From the sequence record MK327930.1: a DNA stretch of 64,000 nt; one strand, given 5' to 3'. This document shows, in pieces, positions 40,631 through 60,322 of the stretch. Source of the DNA: Escherichia phage EdH4. The notes beneath the pieces were generated by a model. The model did not search any database. It was not told the origin of the DNA and saw only the letters and a list, made by a program, of their open reading frames with translations. How positions within the stretch are numbered: position 1 is the first letter of the stretch; the number at the start of each line of letters is the position of its first letter. The position numbers and the translations under genes were made by a program.

Positions 40631-40894
40631 ATGGCAACAGAGTTAAAATTTGCATCAAACCGTAAAACTAAGAAGTATCTGTCCTCAGTAGCTCCAGGCA
40701 CTGTGGTGATGTTTGTTGATGAACTTGGGGATGTGAATACAGCACTTGTTGTAAAATCACATCCTGCAAACATATATGTTGGGGTATTTGACCTGTTCAG
40801 AAAGGTGTTTGTAGAACTGCCTCACAGTTTGGTTGTTACAGAAATGGATGCCTGCATAGAAATTCTTGGCGAAGTTATGGTGGAGGAACAATAA
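40631..40894 (+). CDS. Small protein, tandem paralogue family 3 (member 1 of 4)
   Basis: 87 aa; shares the pattern K..F..G.VV...D...V.K.....VF.L..........VTE.D..I.ILGE with the next three genes. Confidence 0.6.
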   Translation: MATELKFASNRKTKKYLSSVAPGTVVMFVDELGDVNTALVVKSHPANIYVGVFDLFRKVFVELPHSLVVTEMDACIEILGEVMVEEQ

Positions 40895-41157
40895 TGGCTA
40901 CCAGCATTGTATTCAATTCTAAGGTGAAGAACAAAAAGCGTGCAGACAGTTTTCCGTGTGGGACCGTGGTAAGTTGCGACGGAGACGGCATTCAAAACAT
41001 AGTTATGATTGTCAAAACAGGAGAACATTGTGTGTGGGGGTTCGATTTAGAAAATAATGAGTTGTACGATCTGCCGCCAAACATGAAAGTTACAGAGCTT
41101 GACACCAAAATTACCATCCTTGGAGAGACAAGCTATTCAAAAGAAGGAGGAGAATAA
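40894..41157 (+). CDS. Small protein, tandem paralogue family 3 (member 2)
   Basis: 87 aa; TAATG overlap with the previous gene. Confidence 0.6.
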   Translation: MATSIVFNSKVKNKKRADSFPCGTVVSCDGDGIQNIVMIVKTGEHCVWGFDLENNELYDLPPNMKVTELDTKITILGETSYSKEGGE

Positions 41158-41420
41158 TGACCACAAAAATCACTATCGCAGAACCGAAAGCTAACACTCA
41201 GCCTATCGAAAAGTTTAAGTGCGGTGAGGTGGTAACATTCACACCAGATAATGAAGATGCTAAGATTTTCGCAATGGTCACAGCTGAGTGGATGTGTGAC
41301 AACACCACACAGGTTCTGCGTTTTGACACCTACCTTACAGATGAAATCAGGAACGATAAGATCGTGACTGGTGTAGATACTGAAATTATTTTCTACAAGA
41401 GCTTTTTAGAGGGTTTCTAA
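41157..41420 (+). CDS. Small protein, tandem paralogue family 3 (member 3)
   Basis: 87 aa; TAATG overlap with the previous gene. Confidence 0.6.
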   Translation: MTTKITIAEPKANTQPIEKFKCGEVVTFTPDNEDAKIFAMVTAEWMCDNTTQVLRFDTYLTDEIRNDKIVTGVDTEIIFYKSFLEGF

Positions 41421-41421
41421 T

Positions 41422-41658
41422 ATGGCGAAAATTCGTAAATTATCCAACAATCAGGTTGTTAAAGATTTTGAACCCGGGGAGATTCTGTATGTTCGTGATG
41501 CAGATGACGAAGGAGAAGATCTTGTTATGCTGCTAGGACACGCTGCTGAGGACGGATGCATCCAGGCTGTTTTTCTTGAAACAGCTATGGTGCACTGGAT
41601 AGAGCTGGACATGAAAGCACGAAAACCTAAAGCAGAAATCCTGATTTACGAAGATTAA
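41422..41658 (+). CDS. Small protein, tandem paralogue family 3 (member 4, divergent)
   Basis: 78 aa; conserved FEPGEILYV...VFLETAMVHWIELD. Confidence 0.55.
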   Translation: MAKIRKLSNNQVVKDFEPGEILYVRDADDEGEDLVMLLGHAAEDGCIQAVFLETAMVHWIELDMKARKPKAEILIYED

Positions 41659-50847: not shown

Positions 50848-52593
50848 TTAACGTTGTGCAATTACTACGTCTACGATATCACCAACACCACAATACGTTA
50901 ATTGCAGCAAGGTAACACTGTTAGCCTTGTTGTTAATAACAGGTGTTGCCGACAGGATAGCATACTTATCGTGCAAAGTCACGTTGTGACCTACAGCATC
51001 CTGAATTACATAGATAACCGCAGTGAATGGATAAGGTTTATCTTCCGCTGATGTCCCAGGCCACTGCCCTATTGTAAAATCCCCTTTAGCGTGGACAACA
51101 TACATACTGGCCTGCCCGTTAGGTGTCCATGTCCCACTGGACGCGTCAACCTCCTCTAAATCGAAATCTACCTTCCCTGCGTGGAAAGTAGGGGCAGTGA
51201 TGGTTTTACCAGCCTCAATTTCTTGAGAGGTGGTTATCTTACCACTGGAGTTAATGCCATTACAAACAAAGTTGACATTAGAGAAGTCTGGCAGCCACCC
51301 GGTCACTGTGCCGGATATTTCAAGATTGTGAAGGTGGGTGGTGCCAGTCCCTGCGGCGTTTAAACTAACATCTCCATTTACCTGCAAGTTTCTGGTAATG
51401 TTGCAGTTTTCAGAGTTTGCAGTTGTTGCAGTTAAAGTGGTGGTGGTCAGCTCGGTAATTGTACCTCTATTGGCTGTAAGCCCTTCTCCTTCAAAAGTTG
51501 CACGCTCATTGACTCTTAGAGTATTCAGAGCTATATTTTGGATAGAGGCTGTACCTCGAATAACTACAGACCCGCCAACCTCCAAATCGCCATTTATCAA
51601 TGCATCACCCGTGCTTTCAATATAGCTAGGGTAGATCATGGTGCCATCGACAGAGTATGTTATCCCTGTAACGGTACCTGTCACCTCAAGGTTCTTAACC
51701 CTGGTGGTCCCATCGACCTGCAATGTCGGTTCGGTTGCTGCCTTCATGGCATTACCACGAATGTACACGTAGTCAAAAAAGTTATTACCTAGACCATCAA
51801 AATGCACATCGTTATTATTAGCCACTGGTTTCCCAGAAGTTATAGTGTCAGCTATAATCCTGTGGGTGGACACTTCATGAGGTTGCAGCTCTGTGCTTCT
51901 CCAGTCTGCATGCTTAGGATCGCTCCACGCAAAAGTAAGTGTAGAAGTATTTGCCGTGAGGATTAGATTCCTGAAGCGTGCAGTAGAATCTGCTCCATTA
52001 ACAGGCCCATGTAAGGTGAGGGTGCCACCGACTATGGTGTTAGCGAGTTCTGTAAGACCTTTTACCACCAAAGACCCTACAGTAACTTTCATCCCCTCCA
52101 TGGCTTTAAATATACTATCAACATAGTCAACAACAAACTCTGTGTTTGCTATGGACTCTGACTTATCGTCCATTGGAGGTGTAGGTACTCGCGGGTCACC
52201 TTCGAACCTCGGGCTGTTAAGTTTTGCGTAGTATTTTGCCATTACTGCAGAGTCGGTATATAATCTCCAGTTTGGAGATTGTGAAGGATCTGCTGGCATT
52301 CTAACCGGGTTAGATTTTGATGCTGCGGGAGCGTACCACCACTGAGGACCTGTATCCCCCTTAAACTCATACAGCTGGTTAAAAACTGTTGTGGATGCAC
52401 CATACGCCCAAGGGATCGGTGGCGTTTTAAAATAAAGGGTGTCAAGCATGGCTTTTCGTACCGTAGGGATGGTGGTCCCATCCTCTACGACAACTTCATC
52501 CACAGCGTTACCGTTGACAATCAGGTGCAAACGTTCAGAATCAACAATTACTTGATCTACCGCCTGCTCAAAGCTTGTCATGTCTTGCGCCAT
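50848..52593 (-). CDS. Tail fibre protein with beta-helix-like repeats
   Basis: 581 aa; Thr/Gly/Asn-rich repeats (TLQVDGTTRVKNLEVTGTVTGITYSVDG...). Confidence 0.6.
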   Translation of the reverse strand: MAQDMTSFEQAVDQVIVDSERLHLIVNGNAVDEVVVEDGTTIPTVRKAMLDTLYFKTPPIPWAYGASTTVFNQLYEFKGDTGPQWWYAPAASKSNPVRMPADPSQSPNWRLYTDSAVMAKYYAKLNSPRFEGDPRVPTPPMDDKSESIANTEFVVDYVDSIFKAMEGMKVTVGSLVVKGLTELANTIVGGTLTLHGPVNGADSTARFRNLILTANTSTLTFAWSDPKHADWRSTELQPHEVSTHRIIADTITSGKPVANNNDVHFDGLGNNFFDYVYIRGNAMKAATEPTLQVDGTTRVKNLEVTGTVTGITYSVDGTMIYPSYIESTGDALINGDLEVGGSVVIRGTASIQNIALNTLRVNERATFEGEGLTANRGTITELTTTTLTATTANSENCNITRNLQVNGDVSLNAAGTGTTHLHNLEISGTVTGWLPDFSNVNFVCNGINSSGKITTSQEIEAGKTITAPTFHAGKVDFDLEEVDASSGTWTPNGQASMYVVHAKGDFTIGQWPGTSAEDKPYPFTAVIYVIQDAVGHNVTLHDKYAILSATPVINNKANSVTLLQLTYCGVGDIVDVVIAQR

Positions 52594-52602
52594 GATTTCT
52601 CC

Positions 52603-52869
52603 TTAAGCTTTTTGCTCTTCGTTTTTAACGTGGTCAGGGTGCTGGCAACCCCACCGGAGCGAGATGAATTTGCTAATAAGCTGGGGGCAAGCTACTGAAG
52701 GCGCGTATATCCACGCATACCATTCAGGAAGCGTATCATTATACCCCATATGAATAAACACCCCAGTCATCACCGCCATGCCTATGTTCGACCATAGCTT
52801 AGATTGGGACACTTTCGTAGGGTCATCAGATGCCGCAACCAGTCCCCATAAAAACTGAGTTAGTTTCAT
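52603..52869 (-). CDS. Small membrane protein embedded in the tail-fibre module
   Basis: 88 aa; hydrophobic segments LWGLVAA and IGMAVMTGVFIHM. Confidence 0.5.
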   Translation of the reverse strand: MKLTQFLWGLVAASDDPTKVSQSKLWSNIGMAVMTGVFIHMGYNDTLPEWYAWIYAPSVACPQLISKFISLRWGCQHPDHVKNEEQKA

Positions 52870-52880
52870 TTACCCTCTTT

Positions 52881-53927
52881 TTAAGCATAAGATATAGTGA
52901 TCCATTGACCATTTACAAGTTTTTGGATAGCACCTGTCCAGTAATCACCTTGATAAGGGTGTTTATAAGCGTAGTTGCCAGAGCACATCACATGTCCAGG
53001 GTAGACTCTTGACTCTCTGTAGGTGGTTTTGAAACGGTTTGCTATCCTTACATCGTCAACCCCTCTGCTGGGCATAGGGATAGTAAGGTTACCACTACTG
53101 TCTGCGCTGTTACCGTTTACCCTGCGGACCACGTTTCTTCCACCAACGGTTGCATATTGGCCTCTAACGGTTTCATCGTTACAATCAACTCTTCCACCTA
53201 TTTGAGCGCTTCCGCAGGATTGTTGTCCGTTAACAGTGGCTCTTGGTATCGTGACCGCATTGGCATTTGCAGAGGAACTTTTTGCATCGTTGCATTCAAG
53301 ATTTCCTTGGATAGCTAGTCTTGCACGGTTGGCAGTTATAGCATTGAGCTTCATAGCCGAAAACACAGGCTGCCCACCAGAAGGTTGAAATCTCCAACGG
53401 AACCCGTCTATTTGGTGAGAAGGATCATCAAGGTCTGTGCCGTCAGCACCACCGATGTTGTCCATAATCCAGAAATCCATCGTCGTCTTGTCTGGCGTTA
53501 TGGTGGTATATATTGCCGCACTGTCTGTTGACGCAGATGCAAACTCGATTCTTTGAAGACCTAAAGTTTGAGTCTGAGTCATTATGTCTCCGGACTTGTC
53601 AATATATAGATCGTCCATTTCTTCAGGCGAGTATACATTGAGAACTTGACGTGCAGCAGCTTTGTCTGGAACGTCTGCTAGATTATTAGTGACCCTTAAG
53701 AATCTATTATCCCATCCTGGGACAACATCTTCTGTTAAATGCTTTAACCACGCAGAAAGCATGTGAAGTTCAAAGTTAACAACTTCACATGCCACTCTTT
53801 GTGTCATATCCCAACCTTTCAATCTCTCTTCTTTTTTTGGTTGAGACTTATTCAACTCTCCCGTATTTTCAAGCACAACATCCTGATTGGCCCAAATATC
53901 AAGAGGGATAACTGGTTTAGTCATCAC
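52881..53927 (-). CDS. Receptor-binding tail fibre protein, paralogue B
   Basis: 348 aa; conserved N-terminus (KPVIPLDIWANQD) and C-terminus (QKLVNGQWITISYA) shared with CDS 54939..55979; centre divergent. Confidence 0.65.
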   Translation of the reverse strand: MMTKPVIPLDIWANQDVVLENTGELNKSQPKKEERLKGWDMTQRVACEVVNFELHMLSAWLKHLTEDVVPGWDNRFLRVTNNLADVPDKAAARQVLNVYSPEEMDDLYIDKSGDIMTQTQTLGLQRIEFASASTDSAAIYTTITPDKTTMDFWIMDNIGGADGTDLDDPSHQIDGFRWRFQPSGGQPVFSAMKLNAITANRARLAIQGNLECNDAKSSSANANAVTIPRATVNGQQSCGSAQIGGRVDCNDETVRGQYATVGGRNVVRRVNGNSADSSGNLTIPMPSRGVDDVRIANRFKTTYRESRVYPGHVMCSGNYAYKHPYQGDYWTGAIQKLVNGQWITISYA

Positions 53928-54013
53928 GTTCTCCTGAGAAAATTCCTTAGGACTATTTTAACACTTTAGGGAACAAAATGCAAGAACGGAGTCCTTTCCG
54001 TTCTGACCTTTGT

Positions 54014-54328
54014 TTACCTTTTACTATGCTCTACGAGCATGTGCAAAATCTTTTGTACATCGGCTCTGATGCCGGAGACATCTGTCCTGACATCCTGCTT
54101 AAGGTCGTTAATATCGGCCTCTAGCTTGCTTAACCGGGTCTCTATAACGGAATCAAGTTTATCTTTTGTAACCATACTGTTTTTCACTAAGATGAGGTCT
54201 TTCTCCAGCTCATCCAACCTCTTGGAAATGCCTTTCCATTTGGTGTGCCACTGGTTGAAAGCCCATACACAGATCGGGACAACGGTACCCATGCAGATAC
54301 CGTACAATGCCGCCAAATCCAACTCCAC
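54014..54328 (-). CDS. Small membrane-anchored coiled-coil protein
   Basis: 104 aa; TM helix LAALYGICMGTVVPICVWAF then coiled coil. Confidence 0.5.
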   Translation of the reverse strand: MELDLAALYGICMGTVVPICVWAFNQWHTKWKGISKRLDELEKDLILVKNSMVTKDKLDSVIETRLSKLEADINDLKQDVRTDVSGIRADVQKILHMLVEHSKR

Positions 54329-54339
54329 AACACCTCCTC

Positions 54340-54924
54340 TTAGAGGGTAGGTCGCTCCGGGAAGAAAATGTCAGGGGCTTTAGATGTATCTATTTCAAGA
54401 AGTTTTACCCTGTACATTTTCAAATCTCTGATGTTACGTTTCTGGTCATCAGTAAGATCATATTCAAGGTCAATCATGTCTTGATAGGCACCAATTCTAG
54501 CAGTAGCCCAAGCAAGTTCTGTCTCTATGACACCCTCTGCCTGTTGAACAAAGAATTCATTGTCTGTGACAAATTCATCACCAACTAAACGCAAAGCGTC
54601 GTGGTGAAGCATAATGTTTTCTGGTACCTCTTCTTTTTTGGCGATAACCACACGAAGACCTGGAGCAGGCCATAAGGCATCAGGTTCTTCTGTAGATGTC
54701 TTAAGAATTCCCTTCTCGTCAACAAGTAGGAAGATACACCCTGGATTTTCTTGTCGTAATGTTCGTGACTGCACATACCAATCACCATCATCATTACGTA
54801 AAAAATACCCAGTGTATGCGGTGTAATCCTCGACCTCTTGAGGGGTCAGCTCCTTGGTTTCCTTATTGGAGTGGTATTCGCCAGATCCCGGTTGGTAAAG
54901 TTTAAACTCTTGAAGTATTTTCAT
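54340..54924 (-). CDS. Tail fibre assembly chaperone (Tfa-like)
   Basis: 194 aa; C-terminus YRVKLLEIDTSKAPDIFFPERP matches the lambda Tfa / P2 gpG C-terminal signature. Confidence 0.7.
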   Translation of the reverse strand: MKILQEFKLYQPGSGEYHSNKETKELTPQEVEDYTAYTGYFLRNDDGDWYVQSRTLRQENPGCIFLLVDEKGILKTSTEEPDALWPAPGLRVVIAKKEEVPENIMLHHDALRLVGDEFVTDNEFFVQQAEGVIETELAWATARIGAYQDMIDLEYDLTDDQKRNIRDLKMYRVKLLEIDTSKAPDIFFPERPTL

Positions 54925-54938
54925 GCTAGTCCTCCGAT

Positions 54939-55979
54939 CTATGCATAATTAACAGTGATCCATTGACCATTTACAAGTTTTTGTAAAGGTCCTGCCCAGT
55001 AGGTTGAACCACGCATCTCTTTTTTGTCACCGAAATGCCAGCCTGTGACAACGTATCCGTTGCGGATTGGGGATTCAGAAACGCCGTCCACAAGTCTTGC
55101 ACCGATTCTGATGTCTTGCACACCTGTCTGCGGGATAGTGATCGTTACATCACCGTTACCGTTAGCCGTCACTCCATTCACGGAGCGCACCACATTTCTG
55201 TTACCGACAACACAGTGCTGGCTTCTTACAACCATACTGTCACAACTTGCACCACCATTAACATATACTGACCCAGCCGTCAACTGACTGGCCACATTAC
55301 AGTTGGTGAATGTTGCTGTATTGCTGATAGTAAGGTTATTGCACCTCATGTTATCGACAACTTCAACATTGCCTACCACTTTCAACAGCGCACGATTAGC
55401 CGTGATCGCGTTAAGGTACATCAAAGTGAACTCTGGATTAATATCCGGCTGAGTTGGCTGGAATCTCCAACGAAACGCATCTACTGTAGATGTACCACCA
55501 TCATCAAACGACCCGGTATTATCACTTAGCCCAAAGTCGAGGGTTGTCTTATCTGGGCCAATAGTTGTCTCTATCCAAGCCTTATCTGTCTCGGCAGCTT
55601 TAAAGTTGATACGTTGCAACCCCAAGGGGCCTGTCATTGTATCACCTGTAACTTTTACATACCTGGCGTCTGCCTCTTCCTTAGTGATAATCCCAAGGTT
55701 TCTACGGGCAACAGGAATGTTCAAAAGATCGCTCAAGTTATTATCACGTACCAGATAACGGCCTTCTTGAGCTGGGATCTGCTCGTCAGCAATGTATTTT
55801 GCCCAAGTCCCGAGCATATTGAAAATATAGTTAAGTTCTTCACATGAGGGCTTTTGACCAAGATCCCAACCTTTTCTCCACAAATCATCAATCGGGCGTA
55901 GCCTGTTCTGTCTGTGGGTGTTAGGCAGAACCTGATCCTCCTCTGCCCAAATCTCTAATGGAAAACTAGGTTTTGACAT
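54939..55979 (-). CDS. Receptor-binding tail fibre protein, paralogue A
   Basis: 346 aa; C-terminus PLQKLVNGQWITVNYA resembles the P2 gpH tip; followed by Tfa. Confidence 0.65.
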   Translation of the reverse strand: MSKPSFPLEIWAEEDQVLPNTHRQNRLRPIDDLWRKGWDLGQKPSCEELNYIFNMLGTWAKYIADEQIPAQEGRYLVRDNNLSDLLNIPVARRNLGIITKEEADARYVKVTGDTMTGPLGLQRINFKAAETDKAWIETTIGPDKTTLDFGLSDNTGSFDDGGTSTVDAFRWRFQPTQPDINPEFTLMYLNAITANRALLKVVGNVEVVDNMRCNNLTISNTATFTNCNVASQLTAGSVYVNGGASCDSMVVRSQHCVVGNRNVVRSVNGVTANGNGDVTITIPQTGVQDIRIGARLVDGVSESPIRNGYVVTGWHFGDKKEMRGSTYWAGPLQKLVNGQWITVNYA

Positions 55980-55991
55980 TTTATCTCCTGA

Positions 55992-58064
55992 TTATGAGAA
56001 GTCTGGCGGGACAACATCTTCTACATACCCTTTCAGAGCAACCTGCCCCATATGAAGCACGGTAGAATCTCTAGCGGTAACAGTGATGCTGTCAGACATT
56101 ACTTGCGGGTATGCCCACACATACTGTTTTACCTCAGGATATCTATACTCTATAGTTGCCATGTTTCCGCAAATACATCTCCATAAAAATTCTTGGTAAT
56201 TCCTGGTTGGGTCGTAACCATATACCGGAGCAAGCTCTTTACTAGGAACGAACCCTGCAAGGTATTGTATTTCAGACGGTTGCCAACCTAACTTAACGAT
56301 AGGTATGTTTACAGACTCTTTTGCCTTTTCAATACCTCCCTGCATCACCCAATCGTAGCACTCGGTGCAGAAGAAATCAAGAGCACCTGCTTCCTTTTTA
56401 TATTGGTCAGCAAGGTTAAGCTTTTGCGTAAGCTCGGTTTCCATAATGGTTGGGAAAAACAGCAGAGCTGTCATCTGAGCTGATGCAGCGTGTGCCTTTA
56501 TTGCCTTTGAAATAGCCGCAATACGAGCGCCAAGCTTACCACGACAAAATGCTACATACTTATCGTAAACACCGCCAGTTTTAGGATCGTCAATAGTCCC
56601 AATATCTAATGCATACTCGCCTGTCTCATCATAAAACGCCTGTTTTGTAGGGTAATCATAAATACAAGGTCTACGAGTATCGGTATTGTACCACCACCAC
56701 GGTTCACCAACCTGCATAATCACTGGCAGGTTGTTTCTCATAGCGGCTGATGCAAAATTCTTAAATACTGCAGTAAGGAAATTCATACCCTCTTCAATGG
56801 TTGGAGACAGGAGGTAGCTACAAGGTGTATACCCTGTTTTAGCGTAGTTATCGTTCCAGTCTCTTTGGGTCCATTCCAACGGGCAGGCATCGCTGAAAAG
56901 CTCAAAACTTACAGATTGCATAACGTCGAAGTTATGTCGTTTGGCATTGTACATAAAATCATCATGCCATTTATAAGCTGCAGCGTTTAGCGCTCCTGTT
57001 CTGTTTATAGACCATTGGGTTCCTGACCATGTGTAGTCATAATAATGACTCATACCAACATAATGGTTTATGGTTCCGGTATAGCCCAGACGCTTGATAT
57101 TGTTCAACACCCTTAAAGGAGACACGTTCCACATATCGTCATATGCGGTGCAGATCCCAACATCGTGCTCTCTCACCTGGATATTGTTAAGTTGCATCAT
57201 TTTCCAGCCTGTGTCTGGCTGAAGCAGATCTAGGCGCAACTCACACTCTACATTTTCCGTTCTCGGGTCTGTGCTATTACTTACCCAGTCTTTAGGCATA
57301 AGCGGTATTAAAATCCTTCTCACCTGCCGAGGATCAACACCCATCATGTTGTTGTTCTGATCCATCCCGACGCAGTCCTCAAAATCAATATGAATTTCTG
57401 CAACATTCTTATCCTCTGAGATGCTGACAGCATATTGAGCTAAAGGAACATAGATGATTGTGCCATCAACAAGGTCTACAGTCATAATCATCTTTTCAGG
57501 AGTGGAGAAGTTGCTGGCGTTGGTTATTGACATTCTGAACCAAAGCTTGGTGTTTCTCATCTCATAGTGATCATCAAACCCAATACCGAAATGGTCATAC
57601 TTGTCAACTGTTTCCCAAATGCACCCAGCCATACCTCCATATGTTCTTGACACTAAACGGTTAATACAACAGTTGTTATCTGCAACAATACAGGTACTTT
57701 CAGTCTGCTGAGTGGTTGTAACCCAATATCTTGGGTGAAACATTCTCTCCTCAACAGTATCCCAAGATATCCTGTCAAGATTCTCATCTGAAACTATTGT
57801 ACATTTCGCCCTTTGTGTTCCAATCATCACCCCTTGAGATTTTGATGAAAACTCCATAAAGAAGCTTCTTGGCAACCTGTTGGGTAATTTGTCAACAATT
57901 TCCACGGGGATCTCAATACTGGTTGCCCCAACTGGGATAGTTACATCGCCCTCAACATGATCATAATCCCTACCAGGAACGGCAGTATCCTGAACTGTTC
58001 GGTAATGAAACCGTGCAGCCATTGTAGAGTAATCACGGTAAGGTTTAAAAACAGCTGTTGCCAT
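55992..58064 (-). CDS. Tail-associated structural protein (possible carbohydrate-active domain)
   Basis: 690 aa; N-terminal beta-sandwich-like segment then a large Trp/Tyr-rich domain; no confident family. Confidence 0.55.
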   Translation of the reverse strand: MATAVFKPYRDYSTMAARFHYRTVQDTAVPGRDYDHVEGDVTIPVGATSIEIPVEIVDKLPNRLPRSFFMEFSSKSQGVMIGTQRAKCTIVSDENLDRISWDTVEERMFHPRYWVTTTQQTESTCIVADNNCCINRLVSRTYGGMAGCIWETVDKYDHFGIGFDDHYEMRNTKLWFRMSITNASNFSTPEKMIMTVDLVDGTIIYVPLAQYAVSISEDKNVAEIHIDFEDCVGMDQNNNMMGVDPRQVRRILIPLMPKDWVSNSTDPRTENVECELRLDLLQPDTGWKMMQLNNIQVREHDVGICTAYDDMWNVSPLRVLNNIKRLGYTGTINHYVGMSHYYDYTWSGTQWSINRTGALNAAAYKWHDDFMYNAKRHNFDVMQSVSFELFSDACPLEWTQRDWNDNYAKTGYTPCSYLLSPTIEEGMNFLTAVFKNFASAAMRNNLPVIMQVGEPWWWYNTDTRRPCIYDYPTKQAFYDETGEYALDIGTIDDPKTGGVYDKYVAFCRGKLGARIAAISKAIKAHAASAQMTALLFFPTIMETELTQKLNLADQYKKEAGALDFFCTECYDWVMQGGIEKAKESVNIPIVKLGWQPSEIQYLAGFVPSKELAPVYGYDPTRNYQEFLWRCICGNMATIEYRYPEVKQYVWAYPQVMSDSITVTARDSTVLHMGQVALKGYVEDVVPPDFS

Positions 58065-58750
58065 TAACCCTCCTGTCTAGTTGCGTTTACTGTAATACTT
58101 TCACAATAAATGGTTGTGGTGTCCCAATCAGGTCTTACGTCAGGAACATACAGCAAAGTAGCCAGCCCACCAACTCCAAACTGGTTTTCTTCCCATACTG
58201 ATCCGAAGCCAAGAGCTGTAGAGTCCCCTTCAAAACCAAAAGCTTGCCCTTGCGATTCTGTAAGACGCAAATGACAAGGCAATGGTAGCATATCTAAGAT
58301 CTGATCGATAGACTGCAATATGTCAAAGCAAGTTTTTCTAATATTTATGTCAAACCTGAAGTTGTCTCCTTTCCACGTATCGAAATTGTCTCTTCCGAAC
58401 AATTGTCGCAAGGTGGAGATGACATCTTCGCGAGTCCCGCCCCTTGATGCTGCGGCCTGCTGAATAATTAGTGTGGCACGAAAATCAGCATCTGAAAGTC
58501 CATTCCTAAGAATACCAAGTTGATTACCAACTTCGTCAAGGTATCTTCCGCTGGCATTGTTAAGCAATCTTCCTTCAGCCAAACCTACCAGCATCTTATC
58601 AACATCCTCCAACCTTTTAAGGTATACGGTTAAGAATGTGACTAAATTAACCTTCTCAGCCAGAAAATCTCCAGGCAGGTAGTCAAGACCTCCCTGAACA
58701 AAATCTGGCAGAGTGTGGATGTGGTTAACATCCGACTTAATCTCTGCCAT
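58064..58750 (-). CDS. Putative baseplate or tail-fibre-associated protein
   Basis: 228 aa; position equivalent to P2 gpI after a baseplate-J-like gene; sequence similarity not confirmed. Confidence 0.5.
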   Translation of the reverse strand: MAEIKSDVNHIHTLPDFVQGGLDYLPGDFLAEKVNLVTFLTVYLKRLEDVDKMLVGLAEGRLLNNASGRYLDEVGNQLGILRNGLSDADFRATLIIQQAAASRGGTREDVISTLRQLFGRDNFDTWKGDNFRFDINIRKTCFDILQSIDQILDMLPLPCHLRLTESQGQAFGFEGDSTALGFGSVWEENQFGVGGLATLLYVPDVRPDWDTTTIYCESITVNATRQEG

Positions 58751-58761
58751 ATCTCGCCGCC

Positions 58762-60252
58762 TTAAATAGTTTGTTGGAAAGTTATATTACTTTCGTCGAG
58801 GTCAAACACCTCAGTCATGTTCGCAACAATATCGTTTGTAGTGTAAGCTTCATCAGAAGCTCCTACGGATTTAACTTGAATTACCAGTCTATTAAATCTG
58901 CCTATTGACACAGCAGCAGATGCAGCACCTACCAATTGGATATTATACAACGTATCTGCAACATCCAGTCCGTTAACAACCTGCAAAAGAGCCTCTATAA
59001 TGGCATCTTTTTCGGTTGTGGAAAGCGCAGCACCGGAGTAGGTAATTCTCATATCCAGGCGGTAGGTATTTGCCTTGGAGTAATAAATTCTTTCAGTCTG
59101 ACCGTCAGATGTAGTGACATCGTAGAAAATATTACCATAAGTCCTGTTCGTACAGGCTATAGTTTGGTAAAGTGCCTGGCAGATATCCTCTGTTGCACCA
59201 CCAAACACCACCACTTGAAACTTATAAGGTGGTATACCTTTCGCATCCGTTTTATCGGTGTTGTTAGAGAACACTCTTACTTTCTCAACACCTTTCACCT
59301 CGCTTACAGCGCTAAGAATTGCAGGACGGGTAGCCTTAGATGTTAACTGTTTTGTGCTGGAAGCTCTTAAGCGATACTCTGAGTCTTTCTCAACATCCCT
59401 GCCCTCATTGAATCTTTCTCTGTTGGTAAGCTTGATAAATCCACTGGGAGTAGGTGACATTGTTGTCACGGTTTCTGCCTCTCTTGACAGCTCACCAGCC
59501 TCGTTAGCGATAACATCCAAGGTGATAGTTCTTTCCCCTACAATCGGGGATACTCTGAAATCTACCCTGCTATTAAGTCCAACTTGATCAAGATTTGAAT
59601 TGTACCCTATCCACAACGTTCCTGTCAACATATCGATCTGAATCAAATCGTCGTTCAACAGAGTTGTATTATCGACAATGAATTGCTTAATCTCTCCGTA
59701 AAAGCTTGGCAGATCAGAAGAGTCCAGAGCCTTATCTGTTAAAACCAGACTTTTTGTTTTGATACTTCCATCTGTCTGGTTGGTAATTTGAAAGTTGTAT
59801 TTACCAATCCTTAGGTCTGGAGCATTTATTCTGTGAGCAATAAGATTCCCTGCTACTTGCACATCATTGCTAAGAACAAAGTTGCCACTATCCAACGTAT
59901 AAGTTTTGGAATCGTAAATCATATTGTACGGCACAGTTGTGTTGATCGTCAACTGGCAGGTACCTGATGATTTAGAACGGCCTCTTCGGTAAATACCTCG
60001 TCTTCCAAGAAGTTCGTCTAGGTAAATACCTTCTGCCCCATACAGCGTTTGTGATGCGTACACAGATGCTGCCATAAGAATAAGTTGATACTCTCGCTCG
60101 TTGAAAATAGTGGTCAGCTTATCTGCAACGGAGTTACTTTGTACGTTGAAGTTTTCGCCAAAAGCACGGATCAGGCTTTGCTTAGTTTCAACGATTAGGT
60201 CATTTAGGGTTGGTATAACGAAACCAGCCTCTGTCAATCCATACTTAGCCAC
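58762..60252 (-). CDS. Baseplate J-like protein
   Basis: 496 aa; block VEKDSEYRLRASSTKQLTSKATRPAILSAVSEVKGVEKVRV parallels recalled P2 gpJ ESDTDYRLRIQQAF...GRVADISV. Confidence 0.55.
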   Translation of the reverse strand: MAKYGLTEAGFVIPTLNDLIVETKQSLIRAFGENFNVQSNSVADKLTTIFNEREYQLILMAASVYASQTLYGAEGIYLDELLGRRGIYRRGRSKSSGTCQLTINTTVPYNMIYDSKTYTLDSGNFVLSNDVQVAGNLIAHRINAPDLRIGKYNFQITNQTDGSIKTKSLVLTDKALDSSDLPSFYGEIKQFIVDNTTLLNDDLIQIDMLTGTLWIGYNSNLDQVGLNSRVDFRVSPIVGERTITLDVIANEAGELSREAETVTTMSPTPSGFIKLTNRERFNEGRDVEKDSEYRLRASSTKQLTSKATRPAILSAVSEVKGVEKVRVFSNNTDKTDAKGIPPYKFQVVVFGGATEDICQALYQTIACTNRTYGNIFYDVTTSDGQTERIYYSKANTYRLDMRITYSGAALSTTEKDAIIEALLQVVNGLDVADTLYNIQLVGAASAAVSIGRFNRLVIQVKSVGASDEAYTTNDIVANMTEVFDLDESNITFQQTI

Positions 60253-60322
60253 GTCACTCCTCCGGTATGAAAATCTCTACAAGGTATTTTACCAAATTTT
60301 GTAACAATAGTCAATCTGAGCA

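What the first reader, a model, noticed from the sequence alone, without database searches (positions are those of the whole stretch)
52881..55979. Duplicated receptor-binding fibre genes with conserved termini and divergent cores, one Tfa chaperone between them
CDS 54939..55979 and 52881..53927 are paralogues of about 347 aa that align end to end. Their N-termini (virion attachment) and C-termini (...LVNGQWIT(V/I)(N/S)YA, P2 gpH-like tip) are conserved, while the centre is divergent. A lambda-Tfa/P2-gpG-like chaperone (YRVKLLEIDTSKAPDIFFPERP) follows the first. Two alternative receptor-binding proteins suggest dual receptor specificity or host-range expansion.
Basis: partly seen in the sequence, partly recalled or inferred. 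Interest (0 to 1): 0.6.

Follow-up and report, generated by a model that had tools for sequence, protein, structure and literature searches.

The report
Two paralogous short tail fibres, rV5-type phage
The window is from an rV5-like E. coli phage, and the two similar genes are its already described pair of short tail fibre genes with one shared assembly chaperone, so the finding is real but was published in 2013 and 2021.

Summary
54939-55979(-) and 52881-53924(-) encode full-length paralogues (43% identity, E 7e-95).

The window is a Vequintavirus, 99.4% identical to rV5-type phages. The genes are rV5 gp33, gp32, gp31 and gp30. Kropinski 2013 reported the pair and proposed two LPS chemotypes. 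Maffei 2021 called them two paralogous short tail fibres with a Mu GpS/GpU-like chaperone. The feature is already known.

"Conserved termini, divergent core" is only partly right. The best-conserved block is central (aa 111-200). The divergent patches are aa 41-100, 205-250 and 291-325.

- The duplication is confined to Vequintavirus. Copy B sits where sister genera carry a 157-aa membrane protein, behind its own late-promoter motif.
- Both copies are intact in about 115 genomes and three deep clades.
- Copy A keeps the ancestral docking motif and the phi92 gp147-type tip. Copy B has lost the RPIDDLW motif and has a different tip.
- In one metagenomic clade both copies carry the same tip, so dual specificity is not universal.

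Dual receptor use remains plausible but untested.

The parts
54939..55979 (-). STF-A, 346 aa: short tail fibre, orthologue of rV5 gp33. It keeps the ancestral N-terminal docking motif (RPIDDLWRKGWD) and the phi92-gp147-type tip.
   Evidence: phrog_4465, 1.8e-171; 9cuy 1.4e-19; 5yvq 1.7e-6
54340..54924 (-). Tail fibre assembly chaperone (Tfa), 194 aa, rV5 gp32. It is the only Tfa-type gene in these genomes.
   Evidence: PF02413, 9e-12; phrog_136, 2.2e-36; lambda Tfa 34.5% over 84 aa; one place per genome in all 12 rows listed; 247 records, 249 places overall
54014..54328 (-). 104-aa protein with an N-terminal transmembrane segment and a coiled coil (rV5 gp31). Function unknown. It is conserved directly after the Tfa in Vequintavirus, Avunavirus and Seunavirus.
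   Evidence: (phrog_5345, 1.1e-48)
53983..54004 (-). Terminator-like hairpin (8-bp stem, loop AAGGAC, then TGCATTTTGT) between the 104-aa gene and STF-B. In clade L007 the loop is kept and the stem differs but still pairs.
53954..53963 (-). TGTTAAAATA, the late-promoter-like motif listed as P030 for rV5. The related TGGTAAAATA lies upstream of the wedge gene at 60285-60294.
   Evidence: Kropinski 2013 Table S4C; TGCTAAAATA at the same place in L007 and L016
52881..53924 (-). STF-B, 347 aa: derived short-tail-fibre paralogue, orthologue of rV5 gp30. Its docking domain has diverged (QPKKEERLKGWD) and it has its own tip type (YPGHVMCSGNYAYKHPYQGDYW...).
   Evidence: (5.6e-166)
52603..52869 (-). 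88-aa membrane protein (rV5 gp29) directly downstream of STF-B. It is conserved in the sister genera, where it follows a 157-aa membrane protein instead.
   Evidence: (phrog_1322, 2.7e-32)
54954..54983 (-). 30-nt tract (QKLVNGQWIT) identical in nucleotide sequence to 52896-52925 in STF-B. It lies inside a 62-nt direct repeat that is 84% identical.
52896..52925 (-). Partner copy of the 30-nt identical tract, in STF-B.
58064..58750 (-). 228-aa baseplate wedge protein (rV5 gp35). It occupies the gene position of P2 gpI, Mu gp48 and phiTE wedge 1 (directly after the larger wedge-subunit gene), but sequence homology to them was not shown. Inferred docking partner of the fibre N-termini.
   Evidence: Inference from gene order and from published structures (PMC11972413; PMC11915804; PMC13450770). 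The alignment shows clear similarity only to Av-05, Seunavirus and phi92-like homologues.

Best explanation
Both genes are functional short tail fibre genes of a Vequintavirus (rV5 gp33 = copy A, gp30 = copy B). They arose by an old duplication inside that lineage.

Each protein is inferred to form a homotrimer. It has an N-terminal ~100-aa baseplate-docking domain, a conserved central beta-rich shaft, a variable distal shaft and a Mu-gpS-type C-terminal tip.

The single lambda/Mu-type Tfa (gp32) encoded after copy A is inferred to fold both tips. By analogy with Mu, it may stay bound to them.

By analogy with phi92 fibre III (gp147) and the phiTE short fibre, the fibres hang downward from the one-per-wedge baseplate protein. 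They would bind the LPS core for irreversible adsorption and pass the signal to the wedge ring that starts sheath contraction.

Copy A is the conservative copy. It keeps the ancestral docking motif, the ancestral tip type and the ancestral gene position. Copy B is the derived copy. It evolves about 1.7 times faster and has lost the RPIDDLW docking motif. It has a distinct tip, sits in a slot that holds a membrane-protein gene in sister genera, and has its own late-promoter motif.

The most likely benefit in this phage is a second LPS-core binding specificity or geometry on the same virion.

Shown here: homology, domain anatomy, copy number, conservation and gene context. Inferred: trimer state, shared chaperone, docking site and receptor.
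For: - Paralogy: E 7e-95. Same PHROG family over the full length.
- Identity of the locus: 99.4% DNA identity to rV5-type phages, and the same gene order as rV5 gp36-gp27.
- N-domain homologous to the wedge-bound part of the phiTE STF.
- Tip homologous to Mu S and S'. 5yvq is the only Foldseek hit below E 0.001.
- Full-length homology to phi92 gp147, which is fibre III.
- One Tfa per genome.
- Two copies only in Vequintavirus, about 115 records; one copy in Avunavirus, Seunavirus, Mydovirus and Justusliebigvirus.
- Both copies are intact in three deep clades. dN is 0.094 for A and 0.16 for B, with synonymous sites saturated.
- A and B are sisters in an NJ tree (63% bootstrap), with B on the long branch.
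- Of 79 columns at least 90% conserved in single-copy homologues, A keeps 70 and B keeps 57. The losses are concentrated in aa 1-110 (A 38 of 43, B 26 of 43).
- Tip types.
- Promoter and hairpin before B.
- Receptor genetics for V5-like phages: PMC7229145 and PMC8594841.
Against: - No direct evidence here that both proteins are in the virion. The main text of Kropinski 2013 says gp30, gp32 and gp33 were detected by mass spectrometry. The supplementary MS table as held closes with a summary of 19 proteins. Three of its four parts were read and gp30, gp32 and gp33 are not among the loci seen, and a peptide search of all supplements found none of theirs.
- On K-12, loss of one LPS sugar (waaG) abolishes infection, so a second specificity is not visible there.
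- In clade L016 both copies carry the same tip.
- AF2 monomer models are of low confidence (pLDDT 63 and 58), so the domain picture rests mainly on sequence homology.
- Support for A+B monophyly is only 63%.
Confidence: 0.6

Rival explanations
1. Same receptor, different mounting. The two paralogues are not alternative receptor binders. They are two architecturally distinct fibre sets that dock at different places on the baseplate or on another fibre, which raises the number or changes the geometry of LPS-core-binding fibres. Tip sequence is secondary and can be exchanged between the copies.
For: - The feature that separates the A and B lineages in all three clades is the N-domain. B-B identity is 55-79% and A-B is 37-40%.
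- B has lost otherwise near-invariant docking residues: I30, D32, L33, W34, P44.
- In L016 both tips are 84% identical.
- V5-like phages depend on a single LPS sugar on K-12.
- B heads the transcription unit that continues into the lateral fibre genes gp29-gp27.
Against: - In this phage the tips are clearly different (44% identity), and each is strongly conserved (92-93%).
- Published structures show one fibre-docking loop per wedge (Mu gp48).
- No extra docking element was found in the wedge protein. Its C-terminal extension is shared with the single-copy phage Av-05.
- No structural data exist for rV5.
Confidence: 0.25
2. Simple redundancy. Both fibres compete for the same six wedge sites and bind the same LPS core sugar. 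The second copy only buffers against mutation or increases supply.
For: - There is almost no allelic variation in either gene among about 115 isolates (Maffei 2021).
- waaG dependence on K-12.
- The C-terminal strand motif is shared.
Against: - Redundant copies are rarely kept intact through divergence deep enough to saturate synonymous sites.
- The copies differ in tip (44%) and docking domain (37%), and each version is conserved across clades.
Confidence: 0.12
3. One copy is a decaying or unexpressed pseudogene.
For: None was found. The only hint is one record (V18) in which copy A matches in two pieces.
Against: - Both reading frames are open in all ten genomes checked codon by codon, and full-length in about 115 records.
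- dN is far below the saturated dS.
- Each copy has an RBS, and B has its own promoter motif.
Confidence: 0.02
4. Alternative expression, as in the Mu G segment: only one fibre is made per particle, through a DNA switch.
For: The tip and chaperone are homologous to Mu S/U and S'/U'.
Against: - Both genes are on the same strand.
- There are no inverted repeats in 52400-56200.
- No invertase gene appears among the annotated genes of the locus.
Confidence: 0.01

Closest known systems
rV5 gp33 / gp32 / gp31 / gp30 (Vequintavirus short tail fibre locus; Kropinski et al. 2013; Maffei et al. 2021, S5D Fig)
   Same: It is the same locus. DNA identity to rV5-type phages is 99.4%, copy A is 99.7% identical to rV5 gp33 and copy B 95.7-99.4% to its orthologues in the rV5-type records listed. 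Gene order is the same and so is the P030 late-promoter motif. The paralogy (42.3% identity) and the 'two LPS chemotypes' idea are already in print.
   Different: Nothing of substance. This window is another isolate of the genus.
phi92 gp147, 'fibre III' (cryo-EM, PLoS Pathog 2026, PMC13450770)
   Same: Full-length homologue (A 27% identity, E 3e-29; B 23%, E 1e-17). The tip is 58% identical to A's. It lies downstream of the two wedge genes and is followed by a Tfa. It is assigned as the downward fibre bound to the wedge, proposed to carry out irreversible adsorption.
   Different: phi92-like phages have a single copy (128 records, 128 places). Here there are two, and the second has a different docking motif and tip.
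Phage Mu tail fibre S with chaperone U, and the alternative S'/U' (PDB 5YVQ, 8JU3, 9KI1)
   Same: The C-terminal ~60-aa tip domain is homologous (profile E 1.1e-7 to S, 5.2e-5 to S'). The chaperone belongs to the same Tfa family. Both phages encode two fibre variants.
   Different: Mu switches between S/U and S'/U' by inverting the G segment, and each fibre has its own Tfa. Here both genes are co-oriented with no inverted repeats and one Tfa. The N-terminal docking domain is of the phiTE type, not detectably Mu-like.
phiTE short tail fibre (PDB 9CUY)
   Same: The N-terminal ~80-108 aa are homologous (profile E 3.3e-27). In phiTE this region forms the joint that binds the wedge-1 protein.
   Different: The phiTE fibre is 554 aa, with a coiled coil and Ig-like distal domains, and the phage is flagellotropic. 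Only its extreme C-terminal strand motif resembles the one here.
T4 gp12 short tail fibre
   Same: Same proposed role: LPS-core binding, irreversible adsorption and baseplate triggering. Kropinski 2013 reported HHpred similarity of gp30 and gp33 to 1PDI.
   Different: No sequence match to gp12 at E up to 1 in the PDB searches, with single sequences or with the family profile. T4 gp12 uses the gp57A chaperone, not a Tfa.

Membership tests
Vequintavirinae-type short tail fibre (phrog_4465; rV5 gp30/gp33, phi92 gp147) | Full-length match to the family profile | tested here: met
   A 1.8e-171 (aa 1-346) and B 5.6e-166 (aa 1-347) against phrog_4465
Vequintavirinae-type short tail fibre (phrog_4465; rV5 gp30/gp33, phi92 gp147) | N-terminal wedge-docking domain homologous to phiTE STF residues 3-92 | tested here: met
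   9cuy: A 1.4e-19, B 2.1e-8; family profile 3.3e-27. B departs at 17 of 43 conserved N-domain columns.
Vequintavirinae-type short tail fibre (phrog_4465; rV5 gp30/gp33, phi92 gp147) | Gene downstream of the wedge genes and followed by a Tfa gene | tested here: inconclusive
   Met for A: wedge, wedge, NCTSP, A, Tfa. Not met for B, which follows the 104-aa gene and is followed by an 88-aa membrane protein.
Vequintavirinae-type short tail fibre (phrog_4465; rV5 gp30/gp33, phi92 gp147) | Structural component of the virion baseplate | not testable with these tools
   The literature is partly inconsistent. The rV5 main text lists gp30, gp32 and gp33 as detected. The parts of the held MS table that were read do not list them, and a peptide search found none. 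phi92 gp147 was fitted into fibre III density.
Mu gpS / P2 gpH-type tail fibre tip | C-terminal domain homologous to Mu S residues ~438-503 / P2 H C-terminus | tested here: met
   Family profile vs 5yvq 1.1e-7 and vs 8ju3 5.2e-5. A alone 1.7e-6. B alone is not significant (E 0.055 in a small database). P2 H: A E 0.006, B 0.43.
Mu gpS / P2 gpH-type tail fibre tip | N-terminal domain of the Mu S / P2 H type that docks on gp48 / gpI | tested here: not met
   No N-terminal alignment to Mu S or P2 H. Only the NL.D...AR.NLG collar motif (aa 75-140) and the tip align.
Mu gpS / P2 gpH-type tail fibre tip | Invertible segment with a site-specific invertase giving alternative fibres (Mu, P1) | tested here: not met
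   No inverted repeats in 52400-56200. Both genes are on the minus strand, and no invertase gene appears among the annotated genes of the locus.
Tail fibre assembly protein, Caudo_TAP (lambda Tfa, Mu U, P2 G) | Pfam PF02413 above the gathering score, with the conserved C-terminal helical region | tested here: met
   45.7 bits against a cut-off of 22.1, aa 121-192. phrog_136 2.2e-36. Lambda Tfa 34.5% over 84 aa, Mu U' 7e-4, no direct BLAST hit to P2 G.
Tail fibre assembly protein, Caudo_TAP (lambda Tfa, Mu U, P2 G) | Binds and folds the cognate fibre tip | not testable with these tools
   Inference from Mu (North 2019, as summarised in PMC9608196). No multimer prediction tool was available.
T4 gp12-type short tail fibre | Sequence or fold homology to the gp12 receptor-binding domain | tested here: not met
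   No gp12 chain at E up to 1 in four PDB sequence searches. None among the 50 best Foldseek hits, though the model is of low confidence.

The most novel reading that the evidence does not exclude
The pair has been retained not mainly for dual receptor specificity but for two different mountings. The B lineage has an anciently re-modelled baseplate-docking domain, having lost the otherwise near-invariant RPIDDLW motif in all three clades. It has its own late promoter and sits at the head of the lateral-fibre operon. Tip modules are exchangeable between the two copies: they are the same in clade L016, and a 30-nt tract is identical here. On this reading rV5-type phages would carry two structurally distinct sets of LPS-core fibres, possibly 12 rather than 6, served by one chaperone.
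Probability: 0.25. Interest if true: 0.45.

Novelty: already known. Interest (0 to 1): 0.2.

Why it matters
Vequintavirus phages are among the most frequently isolated broad-host-range coliphages and are used in therapy and biocontrol cocktails. Which fibre performs the irreversible LPS-core step, and whether the second short fibre widens the range of core types that can be used, matters for host-range prediction and engineering. That question is open experimentally, but it has been posed in print since 2013, so this finding adds no new question. The small additions made here give concrete constructs for anyone who tests it: copy A is the conservative copy and copy B the derived one, B's docking motif is lost, and one clade carries identical tips.

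Tried and rejected
1. AlphaFold2 monomer models of A and B came out at low confidence (pLDDT 62.8 and 58.0). I used only the one significant Foldseek hit (5yvq_A, E 4.5e-7) and did not search with the B model.
2. NCBIfam gave no hits for any of the five proteins. Pfam gave none for the two fibres.
3. I tried to verify virion incorporation in the rV5 MS supplement. Its closing summary counts 19 proteins. In the three of four parts read I found no gp30, gp32 or gp33, and a peptide search of all supplements found none of their peptides. The claim therefore rests on the paper's main text only.
4. Gene conversion at the 3' end.
   - The 30-nt identical tract and three synonymous sites that co-vary between the window clade and L007 look like concerted evolution.
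   - A four-taxon site test gave 203 orthology, 24 conversion-like and 26 other sites. The permutation p for the run of three was 0.16, so I report this as suggestive only.
   - In L016 the tips are 84% identical in protein, but the same-codon fraction is at background. Any exchange there is old.
5. I looked for a second fibre-docking element in the 228-aa wedge protein. Its extra C-terminal ~15-18 aa are shared with single-copy Av-05 and track the 690-aa NCTSP protein, not the duplication.
6. I looked for a remnant of the 157-aa membrane gene that occupies B's slot in sister genera. There is none in the window.
7. A Mu-like invertible switch is ruled out: no inverted repeats.
8. My first idea was that the conserved Tfa C-terminus binds the conserved fibre C-terminus. 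I dropped it because in Mu the variable N-domain of the Tfa binds the fibre and the C-domain trimerises.
Full report
**What the window is.**
The stretch 52500-56100 is 99.4% identical to rV5-type Escherichia phages. There are 116 matching records, almost all Vequintavirus. Gene order matches annotated genomes. Reading along the minus strand it is:
- baseplate wedge (58762-60252; rV5 gp36)
- 228-aa wedge protein (58064-58750; gp35)
- 690-aa Calx-beta / NCTSP TIM-barrel protein (55992-58064; gp34)
- fibre A (54939-55979; gp33)
- Tfa (54340-54924; gp32)
- 104-aa protein (54014-54328; gp31)
- fibre B (52881-53924; gp30)
- 88-aa membrane protein (52603-52869; gp29)
- 581-aa fibre (gp28)
- 1878-aa fibre (gp27)

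**Check of the observation.**
A and B are real full-length paralogues. BLASTP gives 43% identity and E 7e-95, and both cover phrog_4465 end to end. The chaperone call is right: PF02413 scores above its gathering threshold, and the C-terminal 84 aa are 34.5% identical to lambda Tfa.

Three details need correction.
- B most likely starts at ATG 53924, as in every public annotation, not at GTG 53927.
- The identity profile is not 'conserved ends, divergent middle'. The peak is central (57-70% at aa 111-158). The troughs are at aa 41-100 (27-30%), 205-250 (23%) and about 291-325 (27-37%). Only the first ~30 and last ~25 residues are well conserved at the ends.
- A second gene, the 104-aa TM + coiled-coil protein, also lies between the paralogues.

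**What the proteins are.**
- The N-terminal ~80-108 aa match the phiTE short tail fibre (PDB 9cuy). E-values are 1.4e-19 for A, 2e-8 for B and 3e-27 for the family profile. In phiTE exactly this part (residues 3-92) is modelled as the joint that attaches the trimer to the single-copy wedge-1 protein.
- Residues ~70-117 carry the NL.D...AR.NLG collar motif, also seen in Mu S and the P7-1 short fibre.
- The last ~60 aa match the C-terminus of Mu S (profile domain E 1.1e-7) and Mu S' (5.2e-5). 5yvq is the only significant Foldseek hit of the low-confidence model.
- Similarity to the P2 gpH C-terminus exists but is weak: A E 0.006 in an 11-sequence database, B not significant.
- Both are full-length homologues of the Justusliebigvirus protein that is 99.4% identical to phi92 gp147. 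A 2026 cryo-EM study assigns gp147 to 'fibre III'. This is the downward fibre bound to the bottom of the wedge protein, which swings on contraction and is proposed to mediate irreversible adsorption.

**Already published.**
- Kropinski et al. 2013 described gp30 and gp33 as 42.3% identical. [quoted passage not shown]
- Their Table S4 lists a late promoter P030 whose sequence is the motif found here at 53954-53963.
- Maffei et al. [quoted passage not shown] They described these as homologous to the single locus of phi92-like phages and ultimately to Mu GpS/GpU. They also noted that the two genes show no considerable allelic variation.
- Piya et al. 2020 found that the V5-like phage LL12 needs outer-core glucose I (waaG) on K-12.

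The finding and its interpretation are therefore known.

1. *Distribution.*
   - Two copies occur only in Vequintavirus, in about 115 phage records.
   - Avunavirus, Seunavirus, Mydovirus-like Klebsiella phages and Justusliebigvirus have one copy.
   - All have one Tfa.
2. *Context.*
   - In Av-05 and Seunavirus the order is fibre, Tfa, 104-aa, 157-aa multi-TM protein, 88-aa, 581-aa fibre.
   - In Vequintavirus, fibre B sits where the 157-aa gene is, and no remnant of that gene is in the window.
   - B is preceded by the only sizeable intergenic gap of the cluster. The gap holds a terminator-like hairpin and the late-promoter motif.
   - The motif recurs at the same place in two deep clades. 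The hairpin, seen again in L007, keeps its loop and has a different but still pairing stem.
3. *Age and selection.*
   - Two metagenomic clades have the same architecture. In L007-9, A is 87% and B 78% identical to the window. In L016, A is 73% and B 44% identical.
   - Synonymous sites are saturated, while dN is 0.094 for A and 0.16 for B.
   - All twenty reading frames examined are open. Neither copy is a pseudogene.
4. *Asymmetry.*
   - A is closer than B to every single-copy homologue. Against Av-05 it is 48% versus 37%.
   - An NJ tree puts A and B as sisters, with 63% bootstrap and B on a long branch.
   - Of 79 columns that are at least 90% conserved in 26 single-copy homologues, A keeps 70 and B keeps 57.
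   - In the docking domain, A keeps 38 of 43 such columns and B keeps 26. The near-invariant RPIDDLW.KGWD.GQKP motif reads QPKKEERLKGWDMTQRV in B.
5. *Tips.*
   - A's tip belongs to a type shared with Av-05, Seunavirus R7 and phi92 gp147 (57-58% identical to A; 60-85% among those proteins).
   - B's tip is 42-44% identical to that type and lacks the TGW.FG.KKE.RG signature.
   - Between the window and L007 clades, each tip is 92-93% conserved.
6. *Exchange between the copies.*
   - In L016, B has a B-type docking domain (55% to B here, 37-39% to the three A copies). Its tip, however, is 84% identical to the A tip of the same genome and only 37% to B here.
   - The simplest reading is an old tip exchange or homogenisation. 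The same-codon fraction in that tip is at background level.
   - In the window the two genes share an exact 30-nt word over QKLVNGQWIT.
   - Three synonymous sites in that word co-vary between the window clade and L007.
   - A four-taxon permutation test gives only p = 0.16, so recent gene conversion is suggestive, not shown.

**How it most likely works.**
- Shown: two intact, conserved, co-oriented fibre genes with homologous docking, shaft and tip domains, one Tfa, and separate promoter motifs.
- Inferred from Mu, phiTE and phi92 structures:
  - Each product trimerises.
  - The Tfa's variable N-domain caps the tip during folding and may stay attached.
  - The N-domain trimer docks on the one-per-wedge small baseplate protein (here the 228-aa protein).
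  - The fibres bind LPS core sugars. Their movement is passed to the wedge ring, which opens and triggers sheath contraction.
- Copy A is the conservative orthologue of phi92 fibre III.
- Copy B either provides a second LPS-core specificity on the same particle (best guess, as proposed in 2013) or is mounted differently. The second reading has some support from the re-modelled docking domain and from the L016 clade with identical tips.
- Pure redundancy, a pseudogene and a Mu-like switch are progressively less likely. The last two are contradicted by the sequence.

**Caveat on virion incorporation.**
The main text of the rV5 paper lists gp30, gp32 and gp33 among proteins detected by MS. The supplementary table held in the library closes with a summary of 19 proteins. 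I read three of its four parts and did not see these three loci, and a peptide search of all supplements found none of their peptides. I could not verify that both fibres are on the particle.

**Verdict.**
This is a correct reading of a real feature, with minor inaccuracies, but the feature is already known and already interpreted the same way. The novelty class is 'already known' and interest is low. The residual interest lies in the untested question of how two short-fibre paralogues share, or do not share, six wedge sites and one chaperone.

Noticed in passing
window 54014-54328 (-); L003 6638-6952; L004 6686-7000; L006 6650-6964; L005 6555-6896: A ~104-aa protein with an N-terminal TM segment and a coiled coil (phrog_5345, function unknown) always follows the Tfa gene in Vequintavirus, Avunavirus and Seunavirus. 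phi92-like phages have a 113-aa protein of the same architecture in the same slot, annotated 'lipoprotein', with no BLAST similarity. It is a conserved but uncharacterised partner of the fibre/chaperone pair.
   Followed up: partly
L003 6949-7422 (Av-05), L004 6997-7470, L006 6961-7434, compared with window 52881-53924: Sister genera carry a 157-aa multi-pass membrane protein (phrog_7451) exactly where Vequintavirus has fibre B. tblastn finds no remnant of it in the 64-kb window.
   Followed up: yes
window 58064-58750 (-): The small wedge protein has a C-terminal extension of ~15-18 aa (…DVRPDWDTTTIYCESITVNATRQEG) shared only with Av-05. These are the phages that also encode the 690-aa Calx-beta/NCTSP (N4 gp65-like) protein between the wedge genes and the fibre. 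The extension may be the docking element for that protein.
   Followed up: partly
public records MG0656xx (e.g. MG065655, MG065674, MG065676), seen: Sixteen to twenty-one GenBank records named 'Campylobacter phage', with host Campylobacter jejuni, are 98-100% identical to E. coli Vequintavirus or Justusliebigvirus genes. The host labels look doubtful.
   Followed up: no
window 40631-41658 (+): There is a tandem array of four small genes (87, 87, 87 and 78 aa) abutting one another. The first two are clear paralogues (39% identity, E 6e-12). The last two are weakly related (E 1.6e-4). Function is unknown. They lie in the plus-strand block between the two minus-strand structural regions.
   Followed up: partly
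L016 116-1156 and 2190-3254 (ENA ERZ15185469 NODE_327): A deep Vequintavirus-like metagenomic clade has the same A-Tfa-104aa-B architecture, with a 204-aa Tfa, a 354-aa B and a 117-aa protein after B. The two fibre tips are 84% identical to each other.
   Followed up: yes
tip of A (aa 287-344) compared with ~52-kb Salmonella/Escherichia phages (BP63, UPF_BP2, JEP7 and others): The last ~58 aa of fibre A are 57-59% identical to the tail fibre C-terminus of unrelated ~52-kb phages. Within Seunavirus, R7 and GAP31 carry different tip types (41% identity). Both point to horizontal exchange of the tip module.
   Followed up: partly
PMC3606486 main text compared with Additional file 5: The rV5 paper's text names gp30, 32, 33, 36, 42, 43, 45 and 49 as detected by MS. 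The supplementary MS table as held closes with a summary of 19 proteins. The loci seen in the three of four parts read include 27, 34, 37 and 41 but none of those others.
   Followed up: yes
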